Source: Candidatus Omnitrophota bacterium
GTDB lineage: Bacteria; Omnitrophota; Gorgyraeia; 2-01-FULL-45-10
Assembly: GCA_028699255.1 (NCBI GenBank)
Contig: JAQVUX010000006.1
Location: 25,928 to 89,927, forward strand
Direction: 5' to 3'
Length of the DNA stretch: 64,000 nucleotides
A model generated the notes under the pieces. The model worked only from the letters and a program-made list of their open reading frames with translations. It searched no databases and was not told the DNA's origin. The number at the start of each line of letters is the position of its first letter. The stretch's first letter is position 1. This document shows, in pieces, positions 3,057 through 64,000 of the stretch. A program made the position numbers and the translations under genes.

Positions 3057-5675
3057 TTACTTTTTCCGTTTTATCGACTTCTTCTTCGCTTCGCTCTTGG
3101 GTGGCGCAACCTTTTCTTTGGGCGCAGTTTTCTTTTCTTCAGTCGGAGTCGTCTCGGGTTTCGCCTCTTCGAGCTTTTCTTTCACGGGAACAGGCGCGGC
3201 TGTAACCGTAGCCGCGTTTACAACTGCCGCGGCCGGAGCGGTTTCGCTTTCGTCTTCGGGAACTATCTTAGCGACCGACGCGACTTTATCCGCCGCATCC
3301 AGACGCATAAGCCTCACGCCCTGCGTCGAGCGCCCGGTAGTGCGTATATCTTTTATCGGACAACGAACGATCATGCCTTTTTCCGTCATAAGCATTATCT
3401 CGTCCTTGTCGGAAACTGTCGTAAGGCTCACGGCCTCGCCGTTCTTGCCTGTCACCTTCATATTTATAATACCTTTACCGCCCCGGGATTGCAAACGATA
3501 TTCTTTGAAGGGTGTCCGCTTCCCGAAACCCTGTCCGCTGACAGTAAGTACCGTCTGCTCGGGCTTGACTATTTCCATGGCGATACATGCGTCTTTTTTG
3601 CCGAGCGTTATACCTTTGACGCCTTTGGCGGCCCGGCCCATATCGCGAACCTGCGCTTCTTTGAACCGTATGGCTTTGCCCTCTTTGGTAGCGAGCAATA
3701 TCTCGTCGTCGCCGTTCGTCATCTCGACTTCGATAAGTGCGTCGTCTTTCTCGAGGCCGATACCTATAATGCCGCCCTTCCTCGGGTTGGAATATGCGGT
3801 AAGTGCCGTCTTCTTGATGAGCCCGTTCTTCGTGGCCATGATAAGGAAGTGCCCGTCTTTAAACTCTCTCACCGGCACAAACGCGCTTATATTCTCCCCC
3901 TGGGCTAACGCGAGCATGTTAACTATAGCTTTGCCTTTGGACGTCCTGCCGCCCTCGGGTATCTCGTGGACTTTCAGCCAGTGAATGTTACCTTTGTCCG
4001 TAAAGAACAGCATATAGTCGTGGGTCGATGCTATAAAGAGGTGCTCGACAAAATCTTCCTCTTTCATATCGGCGCCTGTAACGCCCTTGCCGCCCCGATG
4101 CTGTTTTTTGTAACTGGACACGGGCAGTCTCTTGATGTATCCCGAATGGCTTATCGTTATGACGACATCCTCTTCGGCGATCAGGTCTTCGATATCGAGC
4201 TCTTCAGCTTCGGGCGCTATCTCCGTCCTTCTCTCGTCGCCGATTTTTTCGGCCAATTCTTTCGTCTCTTCTTTTATTATCTCGAGAACCTTCCGCTCGC
4301 TGGCAAGAATAGATTTTAAAAACTCTATTCTTTTTATGAGCTCGAGATATTCTTTCTCTATCTTGTCACGCTCGAGGCCGGTCAGGCGCTGTAACTGCAT
4401 CTCGAGTATCGCGGTCGCCTGTTTTTCCGACAGATCGAACTTCTTTATAAGCTCTATCTTCGCCGCCTGCGGGCTCTCGGACTCTTTTATGACCTTTATG
4501 ATCCTGTCGAGATTTTTCAGCGCTATCTTTAATCCCTCGAGGATGTGCGCCCTGTCCTGGGCCTTGGCCAGCTCGAATTTCGTCCTTCTTACTATTATGA
4601 CCTTGCGGTGTTTTATGAATTCATCGAGGATCTCTTTTAAGTTTAAAACCTTGGGCCTGCCGCCGACGAGCGCCAGCATAATAACGCCGAAGGTCTCCTG
4701 CATCTGCGTATGTTTGTACAGTTGATTTAACACGACGTGCGCGTTGATGCCGCGCTTCAGTTCTATGACTATGCGCATCCCGTCCTTATCCGACTCGTCC
4801 CGTAGATCGGAAATGCCCTCTATCTTTTTATCCTGTATCAGATCCGCTATCGATTTGATGAGATTCGCTTTATTAACGAGGTACGGTATCTCTTTGACGA
4901 TGATGGCTTCTTTGCCGTTTTTCTGCTCTTCAATAAACGCCTTCGCGTTTATTTTAAGCCGCCCGCGTCCGGTCGTATAAGCGCTTTTTATACCGTCGTA
5001 GCCGCGGATTATCCCTCCCGTCGGGAAATCGGGCCCCTTCACCTTCTTTAAAAGATCTTTCGGTTCGCAATCGGGGTTGTCTATCACAAAGATGATCGCA
5101 TCGGCTATTTCTCTCAAATTATGCGGGGGGATGTTCGTCGCCATGCCGACGGCTATGCCGCTCGACCCGTTGACTAAAAGATTCGGCAGGCACGCCGGAA
5201 GAAGCGCCGGCTCCTGGAGCGACCCGTCGAAGTTAGGGACAAAATCCACCGTATCTTTTTCTATGTCGAGTAGCATCCAATCCGTTATGCGCTCGAGCCT
5301 GGCTTCCGTGTACCTCATGGCGGCCGCTGAATCTCCGTCGATCGAACCGAAATTTCCCTGGCCGTCGACTAAAGGATAACGCAGTGAGAAATCCTGCGCC
5401 ATGCGCACAAGAGTATCGTAAACCGCGCTGTCTCCATGCGGGTGATATTTACCTAATACCTCTCCTGTGATCCTCGCGCATTTTTTATACGGCTTATTGT
5501 GCTCGAGTGAAAGCTCTTTCATCGCGTAAAGGATCCTGCGGTGGACGGGCTTCAACCCGTCGCGCACATCGGGCAGGGCGCGGCCTACGATGACCGACAT
5601 CGCGTAATTAATATAGGAATCCTTCATCTCTTCTTCTATGTATCGCGTGATTACTTTTTCATTCCGTGTGTACAT
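3057..5675 (-). CDS. gyrA: DNA gyrase subunit A
   Basis: 872 aa; N-terminus [30 protein letters not shown]; GyrA beta-pinwheel repeats present; lysine-rich C-terminal tail. Confidence 0.95.
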
Positions 5676-5695: not shown

Positions 5696-8466
<2,771 letters not shown>

Positions 8467-26172: not shown

Positions 26173-26416
26173 CACCCCGGGAAGCGCGATTTGCCTTTCG
26201 ACAAAAGGCATGATATACTTTTATTGAAATAAAATATCCCTGCGGTGCGCGTGATTGGAACAGGAATCTTGAGCCAACAGTATGTTAAAAGGGAGTTTAA
26301 CTGAGTGAGCGCCTTGGCGTTCATTCGAGAGCTCCCACCTGATGAAAATCGGGGTCAAGATTACTTTCTCCACACGGCACAGGCGGGGATTTTTTTAATT
26401 TTGCACCCCTGAAGAA

Positions 26417-26537
26417 GCCCGCAGAGATTCGTGTCTCGCGGGACGCGAAATTTTGGCCATGCAAAATTTCACTGCGAAAAAAGTTCTCGCATCTGCTCGA
26501 ACTTTTACGCCCCGCTTAGACACGAATCTCTGCGGGC
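26417..26537. repeat. Perfect 20-bp inverted repeat (GCCCGCAGAGATTCGTGTCT / AGACACGAATCTCTGCGGGC) separated by 81 bp. Each arm is followed by GGACGCGAAATT.
   Basis: Seen directly in the rarA upstream intergenic region. Confidence 0.5.
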
Positions 26538-26586
26538 TATTTTCGGACGCGAAATTAAAAAAATCTTGGGGACATCACAAGGAAAA

Positions 26587-58846: not shown

Positions 58847-59725
58847 TCAGAAAAATGATTCTGGAACAGATATTGTATCATTCGCTTTTAACAGTACGTC
58901 TTTTGACTTATTTCCGGTATGCAGAATAGTAGTAATAGGAACAACTATAACGATATTTTTATCGCCGTCTTTTCGTATTATTTTTGTAGCGTCTCCCGCG
59001 GCGTATTCGTCGAAACCACCTGCGAGCGCGATTGCCTCGACGGCGGTAAGTCCGGCTTTTAGTTCATAAGCCCCTGGCTTTTTAACCTCACCCAAAACGT
59101 ATACCTTAGCGTATTCTTTAGTAAAAGGGTTGACTCTCTGGTCTACAAGCACCGATATGGTATCGTTTGGTTTTAATATAATGTCTTTTGATCTGTCGCC
59201 GGTCTGCAGGATGGTTGCCACCGGAACGATTATGACGGTATCTTTATCGCCGTCTTTTCGCATAATCTTTGTTTCATCTCCATCGGCGTATTCACCAAAA
59301 CCACCTGCGAGCGCGATTGCCTCGACGGCGGTAAGTCCGGCTTTTAGTTCATAAGCCCCTGGCTTTTTAACCTCACCCAAAACGTATACCTTAGCGTATT
59401 CTTTAATAAAAACGCTGACTTTCGGATCTAAGAAATAACCCTCTTTTAAAAGTCCGACAAGCGTTATTTCTACTTCACGTGCGGTAAATCCGGCAACATC
59501 AATATTGCCAAGAGGAGAATAGGTGATAGTACCATCGGCAGCTACGCGAGCCTCTTTACTAAAATCCGGCTCTCCATGCACTTCGATTCTAAGAAGATCG
59601 CCTACAGCTATACGATAATCGGAGTTTTGTGCTTCCTGAGCGTATGTGAGCGCGCCCGCAAATACCACTAATAATGCCATAGATAATAAGGCTAAAAATT
59701 TTTTCATTTGCACCTCGCTTAGCAA
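58847..59725 (-). CDS. Polysaccharide export protein (Wza-like, SLBB domains) with an internal tandem duplication
   Basis: Signal peptide; two ~95-aa repeats (KEYAKVYVLGEVKKPGAYELKAGLTAVEAIALAGGF...) sharing a ~110-nt identical DNA core. Confidence 0.7.
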   Translation of the reverse strand: MLSEVQMKKFLALLSMALLVVFAGALTYAQEAQNSDYRIAVGDLLRIEVHGEPDFSKEARVAADGTITYSPLGNIDVAGFTAREVEITLVGLLKEGYFLDPKVSVFIKEYAKVYVLGEVKKPGAYELKAGLTAVEAIALAGGFGEYADGDETKIMRKDGDKDTVIIVPVATILQTGDRSKDIILKPNDTISVLVDQRVNPFTKEYAKVYVLGEVKKPGAYELKAGLTAVEAIALAGGFDEYAAGDATKIIRKDGDKNIVIVVPITTILHTGNKSKDVLLKANDTISVPESFF

Positions 59726-59856: not shown

Positions 59857-59933
59857 GGGGACGTAGTTCAGCTGGTTAGAACGTCAGATTGTCGATCTGA
59901 AGGTCGCGGGTTCGATCCCCGTCGTCCCCGCCA
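59857..59933 (+). tRNA. tRNA-Asp (GTC)
   Basis: Acceptor GGGGACG/CGTCCCC; anticodon loop TTGTCGA; CCA encoded. Confidence 0.85.
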
Positions 59934-60035
59934 AAATTAAAAAGCTTCTGTTTAAATATCGGCTTTTTAATTTTGCTCCGAAGGTCTGGCGAAAAAATAT
60001 GCCCATTTTAACCTAAATGCAAATTCATAAAATGG

Positions 60036-60064
60036 CCAGAATTTTTCGCCGCGCTTAGACCGAG
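60036..60064 (+). repeat. Left copy of a 29-bp imperfect direct repeat, CCAGAATTTTTCGCCgcgCTTAGACCGAG
   Basis: Matches 63751-63779 at 26 of 29 positions, in the same orientation. Confidence 0.5.
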
Positions 60065-60119
60065 GAGCTACCTTTGGAGTTTTGATAATGCATAGCAGGC
60101 CGATATAGATAATCATATA

Positions 60120-60143
60120 GCAACCCAAGCGGTTGCTTTTTTT
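60120..60143 (+). terminator. Rho-independent terminator: GCAACC-caagc-GGTTGC stem-loop followed by seven T residues
   Basis: Seen directly, downstream of tRNA-Asp and upstream of the KAP gene. Confidence 0.5.
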
Positions 60144-60224
60144 ATTCTTGGAAGGCATGGCACAAAAATGGCACAGTAAACGGAACCAAGCAGAGTATGG
60201 AAAAACTTGCATGGGGAGGAAAAA

Positions 60225-63200
60225 ATGGTTGAAGAAAAATCTTCTAGCACGAGTTACTTATCAGATTCCGCTGTAAATAAATTGACAGAGGATAAGTTTA
60301 AGCATGCTGAGATTGCAAAAATAATAAAACAGATAACAATGGAATGTCCTATGCCATTTACTATTGGCCTGTTCGGAAGTTGGGGAACAGGCAAAACTAC
60401 AATTTCGAACTTTTTTAGAGATATGTTACTAAAAATTGAAAAAATCGCAGTAGTTTATTTCGATGTTTGGAAATACGAGCGAGATTGTTTAAGAAGGCAA
60501 TTTTTAATTACGTTGGTAGACAGTCTAAAAAAACAAAAAAAGTTAGGTAATAAATTCAAATTAAATAAGGCATTGTTTTTTAATATTGGTACACCGGAAA
60601 TAAAAATTAAATGGCTAACGTGGTTGATACATGTCAGCATTTATATCATACCGCTAGTATTGATTTTCATAATAAATGTGTATTGTTACAGACAAATGGC
60701 AATGACAAACTCTGCCGTTTTTATTTTTACTGTCATTTATCTTCTTGTTTTTCTAAAAATGCTTTACGAGAGCATCAAGACCATTGCCCAATCCATCTCT
60801 GTTGAAACGACCACAATCGAGCAAGATCGTTTGAGCGAGCCGGATGAATTTGAAAGTGAATTTGATAGAGTTCTTAAAGAAATGGAAAATGTAGACAGGT
60901 TAATCATCGTGATTGATAATCTTGATAGATGCGAACATAGAAAAGCCACAGAGTTATTGTCTACAGTAAAAACTTTTTTAGAGAAAGATAAATGTGTTTA
61001 TGTAGTTCAGTGTGACGAAAAAGCAATCAAGGATCATCTTAAGAAGGTGTATGAAGAAATCGACCCGGATGAGTATCTAAGGAAATTCTTTAACACCGTT
61101 ATTAATATTCCCAGTTTTATCAGAAGTGATTTGGATAATTATACAGAGAAATTATTAGGAATAACTAAGATACCCGAATTCAATGCTTCAGAAGTTGGTA
61201 CAATTATTACAACAGCATTTAGAGAAAATCCTAGAAGAATAAAACAGTTTATAAATATGCTGATTTCTTATCTCCTCTTAGCAAAAGAAAGAGAATCTGA
61301 AATATCGAAAAGCTTATTGCCCGAAGGTGTTATAACAAAAAACATTCCATTTTTAACTAAATTTTTAATATTAAGACATAACTGGCCCGATTTTTTTGAA
61401 ATCGTTAAAGATGATCCTAGCATTCTCGACGAAATTAATTTTTCTTATAGGGACCACAAAATTCAACTAATTGAAAAAATTAAAAATATACTTAACAAAG
61501 ACCGAAAGCTGGATGATTTTCTTAGAAGTACGCAATTGTATACTACAAAATATCCAAGAGCATTTTTATATTTAAAGCAATCGTCGGAAGAACTCAAAAT
61601 ACCCGAAAGCGAAGATATTAGAATAGCCCTATTAGACGGCAAACAAAGTTTCATCGAAGAAAAATTTAAGATGATAAAAGTGAACAAAGAACTGATAACT
61701 GCCTATGAGAAAATAGTTCTGGACCTTCTTGATAATAGCTCCGATCGATTAACGAGGCTTTTCCATATTTTGAATGTCTCAATTAGCGGATCCCGGAAAA
61801 TTGGTATTAATTTTAGCCAAAATCTCCATAATAAAGCAATTGATATAATTTCTAGCAAACTTGCCGACTATTTCTATCGTTTTGATCCAGAGGATATTTT
61901 TATGGTTCTCGACCAATGTTCACCGACATTGAGAAAACCAATAATAAATCGCTGTTCAAAATTATTATCGGAATCAAAATTACCGGGATCGGATGAGCTG
62001 TTTGGAACCATTGATCTAAAGAAATATCAAGAGAGTCTAATTCACCAAATCTCATTACATATGTCGTGGTTTGAGGAGGAAAAAAATGATATCCAAAAAA
62101 CAATAGCTGTTAGTTATACACATGATCTAGAAATCATTGAGCAGCTATGCCAAGATAATAATTTAATCAAATTTTTTATATCGAAAGATGCTCTTGGCAA
62201 AATAGTCGATCAGATCTCTGATGCTGAGGTACAAGAAACGAAAGAGGGCGAGAAAATTAAACTAGAGCGAAGAATAAAAATTTTGAAAAGCTGTGATAGT
62301 CTGATGAATAACAACATTAAACTCGCACTGATTACTAAACTAGACAATTTATTAAAACTAGTCAATCCTCAACCTTTAACCGAGTCAAAACGCCAGTTTT
62401 TAGCATCACTTTCTACTGTTTTAGCCAATTTTAATCTCGACGTAATTAATAACAATAAAGAAATAACTATTTTATCAAAAGATTTATTGAGCGGATATAA
62501 CGCTGCTGGCTCAGAACAAATAAGAACAGAGTACATAATTCCTTTGATTCTTATCGAAGAAAAAGTCGGGGCAGATATGAAGTCAACTATTAATAGTGTT
62601 GTAACCCCGTTTCTTACAAATACCAAGCCAAATTTAATTTCAGAAATAGTTTCCAAATTGACTAATCTAGGCGTAAAAAAGTTCATAGAAGAAAAGTATA
62701 AATCAATTTTCTTCATACGCGCATCGCAATATCCAGCAATTTTTGATTCATTGTGGACGAATTATGGCCCAGAATTGAAAGATGCATTGTTTGTAAACAT
62801 GATAGTGTCTTCGCATTATATGACTGCTATGAATAAAATCAAAAGTGCCAATTATAAGGTTGAAAAACCATCTTTGATTGCTCAAGCTATAATTGAAAAA
62901 CTCCCCTTGATTAATGCTAATGAAAAAGCCGAATTTTATACCGCTTTATCTGCTTTAAATTGTGGAGATTCGCAGGAAATACTAGAAAAATATATAGTTC
63001 AACTTAGGGGCGAATTGATATCTGGTGATATGCAACGAGAGGAAATCGGGTATCGTGCTTTAAAAGAAGGAAAAAATTCAAAAGTTCTTAATTTGGAAAC
63101 ATGCAAAACTATTGTTAACGACTTGATAAATAGTTTGGAAAAAATAGAAATCCTGACTCAAAAAAATACTTTCGCGTTTGATACAGTTATATTTTTATGG

Positions 63201-63500
63201 AATGATTTGAGCCTTACACACAGAGATAAGTTTGTTACGTTAATCGTTTATAAATTAATTGAAAAAAATGCGGAGATCGAAACAAAAAAAATAGGATTAT
63301 CCAAATTGGCAGAGTGCAAACCAGCATATAATGATCATGAGTCAAACTTTGATCACTTATTAAGCATCATAGAAAAAATTGCGGACGCAAATAACAAAAA
63401 AATAGTAGCTGATGAATTTTTGAAATCTATGCCAACAAAAGAAAAAATGGATAAAAAAGAAGAAACGTTTTGGAATAAAGTCGAGAAAATGACAAAGTGA
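60225..63500 (+). CDS. KAP-family P-loop NTPase with ~750-aa C-terminal extension
   Basis: GSWGTGKTT Walker A; two TM helices inserted before Walker B LIIVIDNLDRC (the KAP hallmark); RBS GGGGAGG 5 nt upstream of ATG at 60225; the track ORF starts at TTG 60207. Confidence 0.75.
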   Translation: MVEEKSSSTSYLSDSAVNKLTEDKFKHAEIAKIIKQITMECPMPFTIGLFGSWGTGKTTISNFFRDMLLKIEKIAVVYFDVWKYERDCLRRQFLITLVDSLKKQKKLGNKFKLNKALFFNIGTPEIKIKWLTWLIHVSIYIIPLVLIFIINVYCYRQMAMTNSAVFIFTVIYLLVFLKMLYESIKTIAQSISVETTTIEQDRLSEPDEFESEFDRVLKEMENVDRLIIVIDNLDRCEHRKATELLSTVKTFLEKDKCVYVVQCDEKAIKDHLKKVYEEIDPDEYLRKFFNTVINIPSFIRSDLDNYTEKLLGITKIPEFNASEVGTIITTAFRENPRRIKQFINMLISYLLLAKERESEISKSLLPEGVITKNIPFLTKFLILRHNWPDFFEIVKDDPSILDEINFSYRDHKIQLIEKIKNILNKDRKLDDFLRSTQLYTTKYPRAFLYLKQSSEELKIPESEDIRIALLDGKQSFIEEKFKMIKVNKELITAYEKIVLDLLDNSSDRLTRLFHILNVSISGSRKIGINFSQNLHNKAIDIISSKLADYFYRFDPEDIFMVLDQCSPTLRKPIINRCSKLLSESKLPGSDELFGTIDLKKYQESLIHQISLHMSWFEEEKNDIQKTIAVSYTHDLEIIEQLCQDNNLIKFFISKDALGKIVDQISDAEVQETKEGEKIKLERRIKILKSCDSLMNNNIKLALITKLDNLLKLVNPQPLTESKRQFLASLSTVLANFNLDVINNNKEITILSKDLLSGYNAAGSEQIRTEYIIPLILIEEKVGADMKSTINSVVTPFLTNTKPNLISEIVSKLTNLGVKKFIEEKYKSIFFIRASQYPAIFDSLWTNYGPELKDALFVNMIVSSHYMTAMNKIKSANYKVEKPSLIAQAIIEKLPLINANEKAEFYTALSALNCGDSQEILEKYIVQLRGELISGDMQREEIGYRALKEGKNSKVLNLETCKTIVNDLINSLEKIEILTQKNTFAFDTVIFLWNDLSLTHRDKFVTLIVYKLIEKNAEIETKKIGLSKLAECKPAYNDHESNFDHLLSIIEKIADANNKKIVADEFLKSMPTKEKMDKKEETFWNKVEKMTK

Positions 63501-63535
63501 CATTAGGGTTAAGTAATTTGTTTGCGAATCAATAT

Positions 63536-63590
63536 TCAAACTTCAATTCAAACTTCAATTCCAAACTTCTAATTCAATTCCGGGGACACG
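63536..63590 (+). repeat. About 2.5 tandem copies of a 12-13 bp unit (AAACTTCAATTC)
   Basis: Immediately downstream of the KAP gene stop. Confidence 0.4.
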
Positions 63591-63750
63591 CAACTTAATT
63601 ATTAATCTCTTTATTATTGCTGTTATGATTTTTGTATGGCTTGCATAGCTCGTATTGTTGTTCCCGGCATCCCTCATCATGTTACTCAATGAATACAATG
63701 CATAATGGGGGACATCTCACACCGCACCTAATATTCCTACGTTTTCCCAG

Positions 63751-63779
63751 CCAGAATTTTTCGCCTTACTTAGACCGAG
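63751..63779 (+). repeat. Right copy of the 29-bp imperfect direct repeat, CCAGAATTTTTCGCCttaCTTAGACCGAG
   Basis: See 60036-60064. Confidence 0.5.
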
Positions 63780-63904
63780 ATGCTCTGCGATCACGGCCAC
63801 AAAAGATATTAGTGTTGCTCAGAGATATGTTCATTATGGCAAAGCCTACTTACAGAATAATATGAATAATATTGGGGAGCTGGATAGATATTCAAGTAAA
63901 AGGA

Positions 63905-63947
63905 ACGCCCCCCTTGACGATTAGCATACTTTAGAGTATACTACTTT
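63905..63947 (+). promoter_or_regulatory. Promoter TTGACG-N17-TATACT overlapped by two tandem 15-bp repeats (TACTTTAGAGTATAC x2) that contain the palindrome AGTATACT
   Basis: Seen directly, upstream of the ORF starting at 63978. Confidence 0.4.
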
Positions 63948-63977
63948 AGAGTATACTAATTGAAAGAGGTGGAAAAC

Positions 63978-64000
63978 ATGAAGTTTATCAATCGGGAAAT
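63978..64000 (+). CDS. Partial CDS (5' end only), MKFINRE...; possibly an ATPase
   Basis: RBS AGAGGTGG 6-13 nt upstream; only 7 codons visible. Confidence 0.3.

What the first reader, a model, noticed from the sequence alone, without database searches (positions are those of the whole stretch)
60036..63779. A ~3.7 kb single-gene segment next to tRNA-Asp, bracketed by 29-bp imperfect direct repeats
A 29-bp sequence, CCAGAATTTTTCGCC-NNNCT-TAGACCGAG, occurs at 60036-60064 and again at 63751-63779 with 26 of 29 identical, in the same orientation. The two copies bracket exactly one gene, the 1097-aa KAP NTPase. The left copy lies 100 bp past tRNA-Asp, a classic integration hotspot. Between the left copy and the KAP gene there is an intrinsic terminator (60120-60143). 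There is also a possible sigma-54-like element, TGGCAC-N5-TGGCAC with GG-N10-GC spacing at 60158-60174, read by eye with low confidence. A regulated gene follows the right copy. This architecture looks like attL/attR or target-duplication scars of a small integrated accessory island, but no integrase is visible in the window.
Basis: seen in the sequence. Interest (0 to 1): 0.75.

Follow-up and report, generated by a model that had tools for sequence, protein, structure and literature searches.

The report
Acquired defence gene beside tRNA-Asp
A large AT-rich gene for a membrane-anchored KAP ATPase, of a kind shown elsewhere to block phages, was acquired from outside and sits in a variable defence-gene spot next to tRNA-Asp in an uncultured Omnitrophota bacterium; the short repeats around it are real, but they cannot be shown to be integration sites.

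Summary
A 29-bp direct repeat (26/29 identical, extending to 35 bp at 30/35) lies at 60036-60064 and 63751-63779. It is the best non-genic repeat in the window and chance does not produce it. The repeats bracket one intact gene, a 1091-aa KAP P-loop NTPase (ATG at 60225).

That gene is clearly foreign: GC 0.32 against 0.47±0.04 for the other long ORFs. Its relatives sit beside restriction-modification genes or inside an integrase-bearing island.

Extending the contig by 3.9 kb shows no integrase. It shows a second candidate defence ATPase (DUF234, PDC-S27-like) and a Y1 (RAYT-like) transposase.

Two other contigs that share this tRNA-Asp carry different defence genes downstream of it, so the site looks like a defence hotspot.

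The attL/attR reading is only partly supported:
- No empty site could be found.
- The repeat does not duplicate the tRNA end and has no internal dyad symmetry.
- A third, inverted copy makes a 79-nt palindrome at the left site.
- The bracketed segment also holds a solo end of the neighbouring transposase element.
- The low-GC tract and the homology to other KAP genes stop at the ORF ends, not at the repeats.

Verdict: an ordinary defence islet, with a repeat that is probably a recombination scar.

The parts
59857..59933 (+). tRNA-Asp (GTC), the anchor of the variable region
   Evidence: ARAGORN and Rfam tRNA at 72 bits. It is 100% identical to the tRNA-Asp of L014 and 97% identical to that of L021.
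59934..59979 (+). A/T-rich hairpin just after the tRNA; the last sequence shared with contig L021
   Evidence: Fold of -10.3 kcal/mol, z = -3.2. The blastn match of L021 420-489 covers window 59918-59979 at 79% identity, E=1e-8, and nothing matches beyond it.
59983..60061 (.). 79-nt imperfect palindrome. Its left arm (59983-60010) is an inverted partial copy of the repeat, and its right arm overlaps the left direct repeat.
   Evidence: Inverted repeat I2. Fold of -24.8 kcal/mol, z = -2.6. The motif TTTTCGCC-N0-10-AGACC occurs three times in 68 kb (59983 on the minus strand, 60043 and 63758 on the plus strand) against 0.01 expected.
60035..60069 (+). Left direct repeat (DR-L)
60119..60147 (+). 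Intrinsic-terminator-like hairpin with a T run, between DR-L and the KAP gene
60158..60173 (+). Sigma-54-like string TGGCAC-N5-TGGCA. It is the only promoter-like string upstream of the KAP gene, and it is not statistically distinguishable from chance.
   Evidence: No sigma-70-like site was found on the + strand between 60065 and 60224.
60225..63500 (+). KAP-family P-loop NTPase gene, 1091 aa. It has a P-loop domain with two inserted hydrophobic helices, followed by a roughly 700-aa all-helical HEAT-like solenoid. GC is 0.318.
   Evidence: Pfam PF07693 at E=1e-33. PADLOC hits PDC-S20, QatA and PifA on the N-terminal 350 aa. AlphaFold2 model with pLDDT 84.8. Foldseek matches HEAT-repeat proteins. 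Composition.
63534..63577 (+). 12-nt tandem repeat (ATTCAAACTTCA, 3.5 copies) abutting the transposase-element end
63576..63692 (+). Solo left end of a Y1 (RAYT/IS200-like) transposase element: the terminal repeat ATTCCGGGGACACGCAACTTAATTATT plus the first 18 codons, then a stop
   Evidence: 89.7% identical over 117 nt to the left end of the complete element at L001 5468-5584. The first 39 nt also match its right end in inverse orientation.
63750..63784 (+). Right direct repeat (DR-R). It has no palindromic partner.
63914..63958 (+). Sigma-70-like promoter (TTGACG-17-TATACT) overlapping a 15-bp tandem repeat. This is the start of the conserved DUF234 module.
   Evidence: Nucleotide homology to DUF234 modules in seven fetched loci (three distinct genomic contexts) starts at 63911-63914.
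63978..64000 (+). Start of a 464-aa DUF234/ATPase_2 gene (PDC-S27-like) that runs off the window. A complete Y1 transposase element, then DUF134 and a permease, follow on contig L001.

Best explanation
The region from about 59980 onward is a small composite defence islet built downstream of tRNA-Asp in an uncultured Omnitrophota genome. Its first gene is a horizontally acquired, stand-alone KAP P-loop NTPase. This protein is membrane-anchored by a helical hairpin inserted in the ATPase domain and carries a long HEAT-like solenoid. By analogy with tested single-gene KAP systems, it most likely acts as an ATP-dependent antiphage sensor/effector.

The 35-bp direct repeats are real. I read them as the duplicated junction left when DNA was recombined in at a 79-nt palindrome that follows the tRNA. 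The crossover could have been site-specific or by short homology within the shared 16-nt or 11-nt blocks. Later rearrangement involving the neighbouring Y1-transposase element would then have produced the present mosaic.

The segment is not an autonomous element. It encodes no recombinase. At most, the repeats could allow it to be lost again or to be mobilised in trans.

Shown: the repeat, the foreign composition, the protein family and fold, the neighbours, and the variability of this site in two other contigs. Inferred: the defence function and the scar origin of the repeats.
For: - The repeat is non-random and unique to this spot.
- The KAP ORF has GC 0.318 and GC3 0.294, against 0.472±0.036 and 0.526±0.065 for 35 other long ORFs, and it has the largest codon-usage divergence of all. 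Four other members of this KAP clade are also about 31% GC, whatever their neighbours.
- Homologs at 56-74% identity lie beside R-M genes (EcoRI-type methylase with GmrSD, MjaI, BsobI, HinfI), and in one case in an island next to tRNA-Ser with a partial integrase.
- DNA homology to the closest homolog covers the ORF only, 60221-63481.
- The next gene scores E=4e-48 against PADLOC PDC-S27.
- After the same tRNA-Asp, L014 carries PDC-S01 (E=5e-120), an IS110 and a DUF234 gene. L021 carries a C-protein/REase/MTase system.
- Tested single-gene KAP NTPases with unknown C-terminal regions protect against phage in a Walker-B-dependent way (PMC13552941).
- The window and an independent Logan assembly agree over all 4097 shared bases, through both repeats.
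Against: - No empty site and no second genome with the repeat were found, so insertion between the repeats is not demonstrated.
- The compositional and homology boundaries are the ORF ends, not the repeats. The 160 nt between DR-L and the ATG are 41% GC.
- The bracketed segment contains an end of the same transposase element family that lies 1.7 kb downstream, so it was not imported as one clean foreign block.
- Three contiguous central mismatches flanked by perfect blocks are unusual for a crossover product.
- The defence function has not been tested for this clade. The PADLOC, QatA and PifA hits cover only the shared KAP domain.
Confidence: 0.5

Rival explanations
1. This is a classical tRNA-linked integrated element. 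The two repeats would be attL and attR made by a tyrosine integrase. The integrase gene has since been lost or acts in trans, as in a CIME (an integrase-less, att-flanked remnant of an integrative element), and the 3.7-kb unit can still be excised.
For: - Direct repeats of att-like length flank a foreign gene near a tRNA.
- The closest KAP homolog is cargo of an island next to tRNA-Ser that has an Xis-like HTH_17 gene and a partial Phage_integrase gene.
- The attB-like left site is palindromic, as many integrase targets are.
Against: - No integrase lies within 18 kb upstream or 3.9 kb downstream.
- The repeat is 102 nt past the tRNA and unrelated to it, and the tRNA 3' end is not duplicated.
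- There are no inverted core-type arms around the variable centre.
- Mismatches sit in the centre, where the strand-exchange region would need identity.
- Homology with L021 ends 56 nt to the left of DR-L.
- The segment is a mosaic.
Confidence: 0.2
2. The repeat is a local functional cis-element and not a scar. It could be a structured RNA or terminator-like palindrome, or a protein-binding or REP-like sequence. It would be present as a doublet after the tRNA and as a singlet upstream of the next defence gene. The KAP gene would then simply lie between two copies.
For: - There are three copies, one of them inverted, and they form a stable 79-nt hairpin.
- The two direct copies lie at similar distances upstream of the two defence ATPase genes, 160 and 198 nt.
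- A Y1/RAYT-like transposase, the enzyme class that acts on REP hairpins, lies 1.7 kb away.
- In L019 the DUF234 module is itself bracketed by REP-like direct repeats.
Against: - There is no other copy in 64 kb of the same genome or in 224 kb of fetched loci.
- The transposase element's own terminal repeats are a different sequence.
- DR-R lies outside the conserved DUF234 promoter module.
- A terminator separates DR-L from the KAP gene.
- There is no Rfam match.
Confidence: 0.15
3. The pattern comes from a tandem duplication followed by gene replacement. A unit running from the DR through a gene to the transposase left end was duplicated. The first copy of its gene was then replaced by the KAP ORF. 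That would explain the interleaved order DR - KAP - LE1 - DR - DUF234 - LE2.
For: - Two repeat families are interleaved in exactly this order.
- The foreign tract is ORF-sized.
Against: - Apart from the 35 nt and the 117 nt, nothing is shared between the two units.
- A 57-nt unrelated filler lies at the presumed junction.
- The two LE copies are only 89.7% identical, while the DR blocks are perfect.
Confidence: 0.1
4. The repeat is a chance match or an assembly artefact.
For: None beyond the short length of the repeat.
Against: - Shuffles never produce it.
- Two assemblies are identical across it.
Confidence: 0.02

Closest known systems
Stand-alone KAP P-loop NTPase antiphage genes (for example EF_KAP of Enterococcus faecalis and metagenomic KAP fusions, PMC13552941; PADLOC candidate PDC-S20; PifA of the F plasmid; QatA of the Qat system)
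   Same: The KAP domain has Walker A and B motifs and hydrophobic helices inserted in the ATPase. A large C-terminal region of unknown function follows. The gene lies among R-M and other defence genes.
   Different: - It is much longer (1091 aa) and has a roughly 700-aa HEAT-like solenoid.
- Similarity to PDC-S20, QatA and PifA is limited to the first 350 residues or so.
- The QatA score is 99 bits against a cutoff of 600, and there are no qatBCD genes.
- The function of this clade has not been tested.
tRNA-linked genomic or defence islands, and CIMEs (integrase-less, att-flanked remnants of integrative elements)
   Same: It has foreign composition, a tRNA-adjacent site that varies between the contigs compared, flanking direct repeats and no recombinase of its own.
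   Different: - The repeat is not the tRNA 3' end.
- No cognate integrase or empty site is known.
- The segment is a mosaic.
- The compositional boundary lies at the ORF, not at the repeats.
Xer-dependent dif/pdif modules and IMEX elements (integrative mobile elements that use the host Xer recombinases), where genes are bracketed by 28-bp sites and moved by host recombinases
   Same: The sites are about 28-29 bp with a variable centre, they bracket a single accessory gene, and there is no recombinase in the module.
   Different: The arms on the two sides of the variable centre (AATTTTTCGCC and AGACCGAG) show no dyad symmetry. The copies are direct, whereas pdif sites alternate in orientation. 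Nothing links the site to a chromosome terminus.
REP/REPIN sequences with their RAYT (Y1 HUH) transposases
   Same: A palindromic doublet plus a singlet lies in intergenic DNA within 2-6 kb of a RAYT-like gene.
   Different: - The RAYT-like gene scores below the NCBIfam cutoff (62 against 80 bits).
- Its own flanking repeats are a different sequence.
- The DR motif is not dispersed in the 64 kb available.

Membership tests
KAP family P-loop NTPase (Pfam PF07693) | Profile match above the curated threshold | tested here: met
   117.3 bits against a cutoff of 20, E=1e-33, residues 29-347.
KAP family P-loop NTPase (Pfam PF07693) | Walker A (GxxxxGK[ST]) and Walker B (hhhhD) motifs | tested here: met
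   G54, G56, K57 and D231, N232, D234, R235 are invariant in 41 homologs. The sequence reads GSWGTGKT and LIIVIDNLDR.
KAP family P-loop NTPase (Pfam PF07693) | Transmembrane helices inserted inside the P-loop domain | tested here: met
   Two long hydrophobic helices (residues 130-157 and 163-190) lie between Walker A and Walker B in the AF2 model and in the sequence. No dedicated TM predictor was run.
Qat system (QatA) | QatA equivalog score, with qatB, qatC and qatD neighbours | tested here: not met
   NF041923 scores 99.3 bits against a cutoff of 600. The neighbours are a tRNA and a DUF234 ATPase.
PADLOC candidate PDC-S20 | Full-length match to the PDC-S20 profile | tested here: inconclusive
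   E=8e-25, but the match covers only residues 20-362 of 1091 and profile positions 16-320 of 464.
Integrase-mediated tRNA-linked island (attL/attR) | A tyrosine or serine recombinase gene in or beside the element | tested here: not met
   There is none between the repeats. Of the 18 kb upstream, the ORFs of at least 250 aa that were scanned (13 of them) are exopolysaccharide genes. The 3.9 kb downstream holds DUF234, Y1_Tnp, DUF134 and a permease.
Integrase-mediated tRNA-linked island (attL/attR) | The repeats are a duplication of the target, typically the tRNA 3' end | tested here: not met
   The repeat starts 102 nt after the tRNA. The tRNA 3' end occurs only once in 8 kb.
Integrase-mediated tRNA-linked island (attL/attR) | An empty site with one repeat copy in related genomes | tested here: inconclusive
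   No close relative is available. GTDB representatives reach at most 51% identity on the neighbouring gene. The repeat is absent from JGI metagenomes and from viral contigs. The only contig sharing the tRNA flank diverges at 59979.
Integrase-mediated tRNA-linked island (attL/attR) | The foreign composition is bounded by the repeats | tested here: not met
   The low-GC tract is the ORF (0.318). The DR-to-ORF spacers are 0.41 and 0.38-0.44 GC.
Xer dif/pdif module | An 11-6-11 site whose arms are imperfect inverted repeats | tested here: not met
   Direct reading of the sequence: the arms AATTTTTCGCC and AGACCGAGGAG are not complementary.
REP/REPIN-RAYT system | The same repeat flanks the RAYT gene and is dispersed through the genome | tested here: not met
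   The RAYT element is flanked by ATTCCGGGGACACRCAACTTAATTATT, not by the DR. The DR motif occurs only around the KAP gene in the 68 kb available. The whole genome was not available.

The most novel reading that the evidence does not exclude
The palindrome and the 35-bp repeats are recombination sites of an integrase-less, single-gene defence cassette. The cassette would be swapped in and out of the tRNA-Asp hotspot in trans, possibly by the neighbouring Y1/HUH (RAYT-like) transposase. That transposase's own end sequences bracket the adjacent DUF234 defence gene here and, in related form, in another Omnitrophota genome (L019). This would be a previously undescribed way of shuffling defence genes.
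Probability: 0.1. Interest if true: 0.6.

Novelty: new member of a known kind. Interest (0 to 1): 0.3.

Why it matters
If the reading is right, this is one more example of defence genes collecting at a tRNA-linked hotspot, here in a poorly studied candidate phylum.

It also points to a well-conserved clade of KAP NTPases of about 1090 aa. Members combine a membrane hairpin with a HEAT-like solenoid and sit next to R-M systems in four of five contexts examined. That makes the clade a reasonable candidate for experimental testing as a single-gene antiphage system.

The repeats themselves would matter only if they prove to be sites of a recombinase-independent or trans-acting cassette exchange. 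The present data neither show this nor exclude it.

Tried and rejected
1. **The repeat as a decayed C-terminal coding remnant of a RAYT gene.** It looked plausible by eye, and the three differing bases fall in one codon. But there is no DNA or protein similarity above shuffles to the complete RAYT copy, and neither strand has a credible ORF.
2. **The repeat as part of the conserved DUF234 promoter module.** Rejected. In seven fetched loci (three distinct genomic contexts) homology starts at 63911-63914, about 130 nt to the right of DR-R.
3. **Extended similarity beyond the repeat.** None on either side.
4. **Known RNA family.** Only the tRNA was found.
5. **Empty-site searches.** All came back empty:
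   - The neighbouring Wza-like protein in GTDB representatives gave only relatives at 46-51% identity (plus one at 26%), with no tRNA nearby.
   - An exact look-up of the Wza-like protein found nothing on record.
   - The repeat pattern gave 0 hits in JGI metagenomes and in viral contigs.
   - The tRNA end plus its flank found one 2.9-kb contig (L021), and it diverges before the repeat.
6. **KAP relatives in viral contigs.** None. On plasmids there were only distant haloarchaeal and cyanobacterial hits. The DNA itself has no match in plasmids.
7. **Repeats around KAP homologs elsewhere.** No bracketing repeats were found around the two checked, L006 and L009.
8. **Sigma-54 promoter.** The string is there, but it is not enriched over chance.
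9. **dif-like or attC-like site.** Rejected on anatomy.


Full report
**The observation.** Without gaps the match extends to 35 nt (60035-60069 and 63750-63784, 30/35) and then ends abruptly. Neither the 100-150 nt before the repeats nor the 160-200 nt after them align better than shuffled sequence. Shuffles never reproduce the pattern. The local alignment scores 45, against a shuffle maximum of 26. In a scan of all 64 kb it is the only non-genic repeat with long exact blocks. tRNA-Asp(GTC) ends 102 nt before the left copy. The terminator-like hairpin at 60119-60137 with its T run is real. The TGGCAC-N5-TGGCA string is present, but strings that good are not rarer than chance in this window. 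An independent Logan assembly (L001) is identical to the window over all 4097 shared bases and runs through both repeats, so this is not an assembly artefact.

**The gene between the repeats.** The ORF is best started at the ATG at 60225, behind a GGAGG. That gives 1091 aa, identical to MDD3906079.1 from a Candidatus Omnitrophota MAG. It matches Pfam KAP_NTPase at E=1e-33. Walker A and B residues are invariant across 41 homologs. Two long hydrophobic helices are inserted between them, which is the hallmark of the KAP family. An AlphaFold2 model built on the alignment is confident (mean pLDDT 84.8). It shows the P-loop domain followed by about 700 residues of stacked helices. Foldseek relates these only generically to HEAT-repeat solenoids such as karyopherins, PP2A-A and CAND1. 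No solved structure is related by sequence. In PADLOC the N-terminal 350 residues or so hit PDC-S20, QatA and PifA. The QatA equivalog score is far below its cutoff, and there are no qatBCD genes. A 2026 study showed that stand-alone KAP NTPases with uncharacterised C-terminal regions protect against phage, and that both Walker B and the C-terminal region are required (PMC13552941). I therefore infer, but have not shown, an ATP-dependent antiphage role.

**The gene is foreign.**
- The ORF has GC 0.318 and GC3 0.294. The 35 other long ORFs of the extended window average 0.472±0.036 and 0.526±0.065. Its codon-usage divergence is the largest of all, although it is the longest ORF.
- Four other members of the clade (56-74% identity) are also about 31% GC, regardless of their surroundings.
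- Their contexts are typical of defence islands. One has an EcoRI-type methylase, GmrSD and an HTH_17 gene before the KAP gene, with a partial integrase and a primase-helicase after it, next to tRNA-Ser. Another lies near an IS91 and an MjaI-type R-M system. Another follows HTH, methylase and BsobI genes. Another follows HinfI.
- Nucleotide homology between the window and the closest relative covers 60221-63481 only. That is the ORF and nothing else.

**The neighbourhood.** Upstream, 41.7-59.7 kb is an exopolysaccharide cluster (glycosyltransferases, Wzy, Wzc-like, Wza-like) with no recombinase among the ORFs scanned. The Logan contig extends the locus by 3.9 kb past the window end, and it shows no integrase either. 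It shows three things:
- A 464-aa DUF234/ATPase_2 gene that scores E=4e-48 against the PADLOC candidate PDC-S27.
- A complete 224-aa Y1 (IS200/RAYT-like) transposase gene, flanked by 27-nt inverted repeats (ATTCCGGGGACACRCAACTTAATTATT).
- DUF134 and permease genes.

Window 63576-63692 lies between the KAP gene and the right repeat. It is a solo copy of the left end of that transposase element: the terminal repeat plus 18 codons, 89.7% identical over 117 nt. The DUF234 gene is itself highly mobile. Homologs at 62-90% identity occur in Omnitrophota, Patescibacteria, Elusimicrobia and Melainabacteria, mostly on short contigs. In seven fetched loci (three distinct genomic contexts) the DNA homology starts at 63911-63914, the -35 box, and ends just before the stop codon. 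DR-R therefore lies outside that module.

**Other contigs sharing this tRNA-Asp.** No close relative exists in the collections I could search. Two contigs share the tRNA-Asp.
- L021 (97% tRNA identity) also shares the post-tRNA hairpin, up to window 59979. After that it carries a C-protein, a type II endonuclease and a methylase of 26-33% GC.
- L014 (100% tRNA identity) carries, after the tRNA, a small GIY-YIG element, a PDC-S01 ATPase (E=5e-120), an IS110 and a DUF234 gene.

So the 3' flank of this tRNA-Asp is a defence-gene hotspot with different contents in each contig. The shared sequence ends 56 nt to the left of DR-L.

**Anatomy of the repeat.**
- A third, inverted, partial copy lies at 59983-59995. 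It reads TTTTCGCC|AGACC on the minus strand and lacks the 6-nt spacer. The motif TTTTCGCC-N0-10-AGACC has three copies in 68 kb against 0.01 expected, and none in 224 kb of other loci.
- Together with DR-L the inverted copy forms a 79-nt imperfect palindrome (-24.8 kcal/mol, z = -2.6). DR-R has no partner.
- The only differences between the direct copies within the 29-bp core are three contiguous bases (GCG and TTA), flanked by perfect blocks of 16 and 11 nt.
- The sequences on either side of that centre are not inverted repeats of each other. The site therefore does not look like the core of a tyrosine recombinase or Xer site, and it is unrelated to the tRNA.
- The GC drop coincides with the ORF. 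The 160 nt between DR-L and the ATG are 41% GC, and the pieces between the ORF and DR-R are 28-44% GC.
- The two repeat families are interleaved: DR'/DR, KAP, LE1, DR, DUF234, then LE2-RAYT-RE.

**Interpretation.** It is well supported that this is an acquired defence-type gene in a tRNA-Asp-linked variable islet. The origin of the repeat is not settled. I favour a recombination scar at the palindrome, from either a site-specific event or a short-homology crossover within the 16-nt or 11-nt identical blocks, with later rearrangement that involved the Y1-transposase element. The reason is that the copies bracket the one compositionally foreign gene and occur nowhere else in the available sequence. 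The strict attL/attR model, with an integrase lost or acting in trans, remains possible. But it fails several membership tests: there is no integrase, the repeat is not the tRNA end, it has no dyad symmetry, its boundaries do not match the composition or the homology, and the content is a mosaic. A local cis-element (a REP-like or structural palindrome with a singlet copy) and a tandem duplication followed by gene replacement are the other live options. Each is refutable by a genome-wide count of the motif or by a single empty site in a relative.

**Comparison with known systems, and score.** The protein is a member of the KAP family, with all three defining features met. It is not QatA. It resembles the tested single-gene KAP defence proteins in architecture but differs from them in size and in its C-terminal fold. 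The locus works like a tRNA-linked defence island or hotspot. It cannot be filed as an integrase-type island, a dif/pdif module, an integron cassette or a REPIN. The finding is a new member of known kinds. Interest is modest (0.3). The more novel reading is trans-mobilised single-gene defence cassettes, perhaps linked to the Y1 transposase whose end sequences also bracket the DUF234 gene here and in L019. I give that reading about 10%.

Noticed in passing
window 63576-63692; L001 5468-6225 (window-equivalent 65371-66128): A complete Y1 (IS200/RAYT-like) transposase element with 27-nt terminal inverted repeats lies just past the window end. A solo copy of its left end, with the first 18 codons, lies between the KAP gene and the right repeat. 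The two left ends are direct repeats that bracket the DUF234 gene.
   Followed up: partly
L019 138-196 and 1685-1749: In another Omnitrophota MAG the DUF234/PDC-S27-like gene is bracketed by direct repeats of about 60 nt. Their core, GGGACAC[AG]CAA, matches the terminal repeat of the window's Y1-transposase element. It is absent from five other DUF234 contexts examined. This may link REP-like sequences to the movement of this defence gene.
   Followed up: partly
window 63914-64000 and L001 4011-5469: The DUF234/ATPase_2 gene has a conserved promoter and a 15-bp tandem operator-like repeat (TACTTTAGAGTATAC, 2 copies). Homologs at 62-90% protein identity occur across several phyla, and the DNA homology has identical sharp boundaries. 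It looks like a very mobile promoter-plus-ORF module.
   Followed up: partly
L014 2264-2716; L021 290-420: Small elements are inserted into the 3' end of tRNA-Asp with a 15-18 bp duplication of the tRNA end and similar terminal inverted repeats (TTCTRCTTCGC...GCGAAGTAG). The L014 copy carries an 87-aa GIY-YIG gene. The L021 copy is non-coding, like a MITE (miniature non-coding transposon derivative).
   Followed up: partly
L014 about 4250-4360 and 5740-5850: An IS110-family transposase gene sits between imperfect direct repeats of about 110 nt.
   Followed up: no
window 58866-59430: The Wza-like polysaccharide export gene contains an internal 285-nt tandem duplication (84-93% identity). This probably explains why short-read assemblies break there.
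   Followed up: no
window 63534-63577: A 12-nt tandem repeat (ATTCAAACTTCA, 3.5 copies) lies directly before the solo transposase-element end. The sequence AATTCC precedes both left ends and could be the element's target.
   Followed up: no
window 26391-26563: A 46-nt inverted repeat (76% complementary, 81 nt between the arms) of unknown nature.
   Followed up: no
L006 5920-16400: The closest KAP homolog (74% identity) lies in an island next to tRNA-Ser(TGA). The island carries an EcoRI-type methylase, GmrSD, an HTH_17 gene, a partial integrase and an AEP/DnaB primase-helicase. No att duplication was found within 17 kb.
   Followed up: partly
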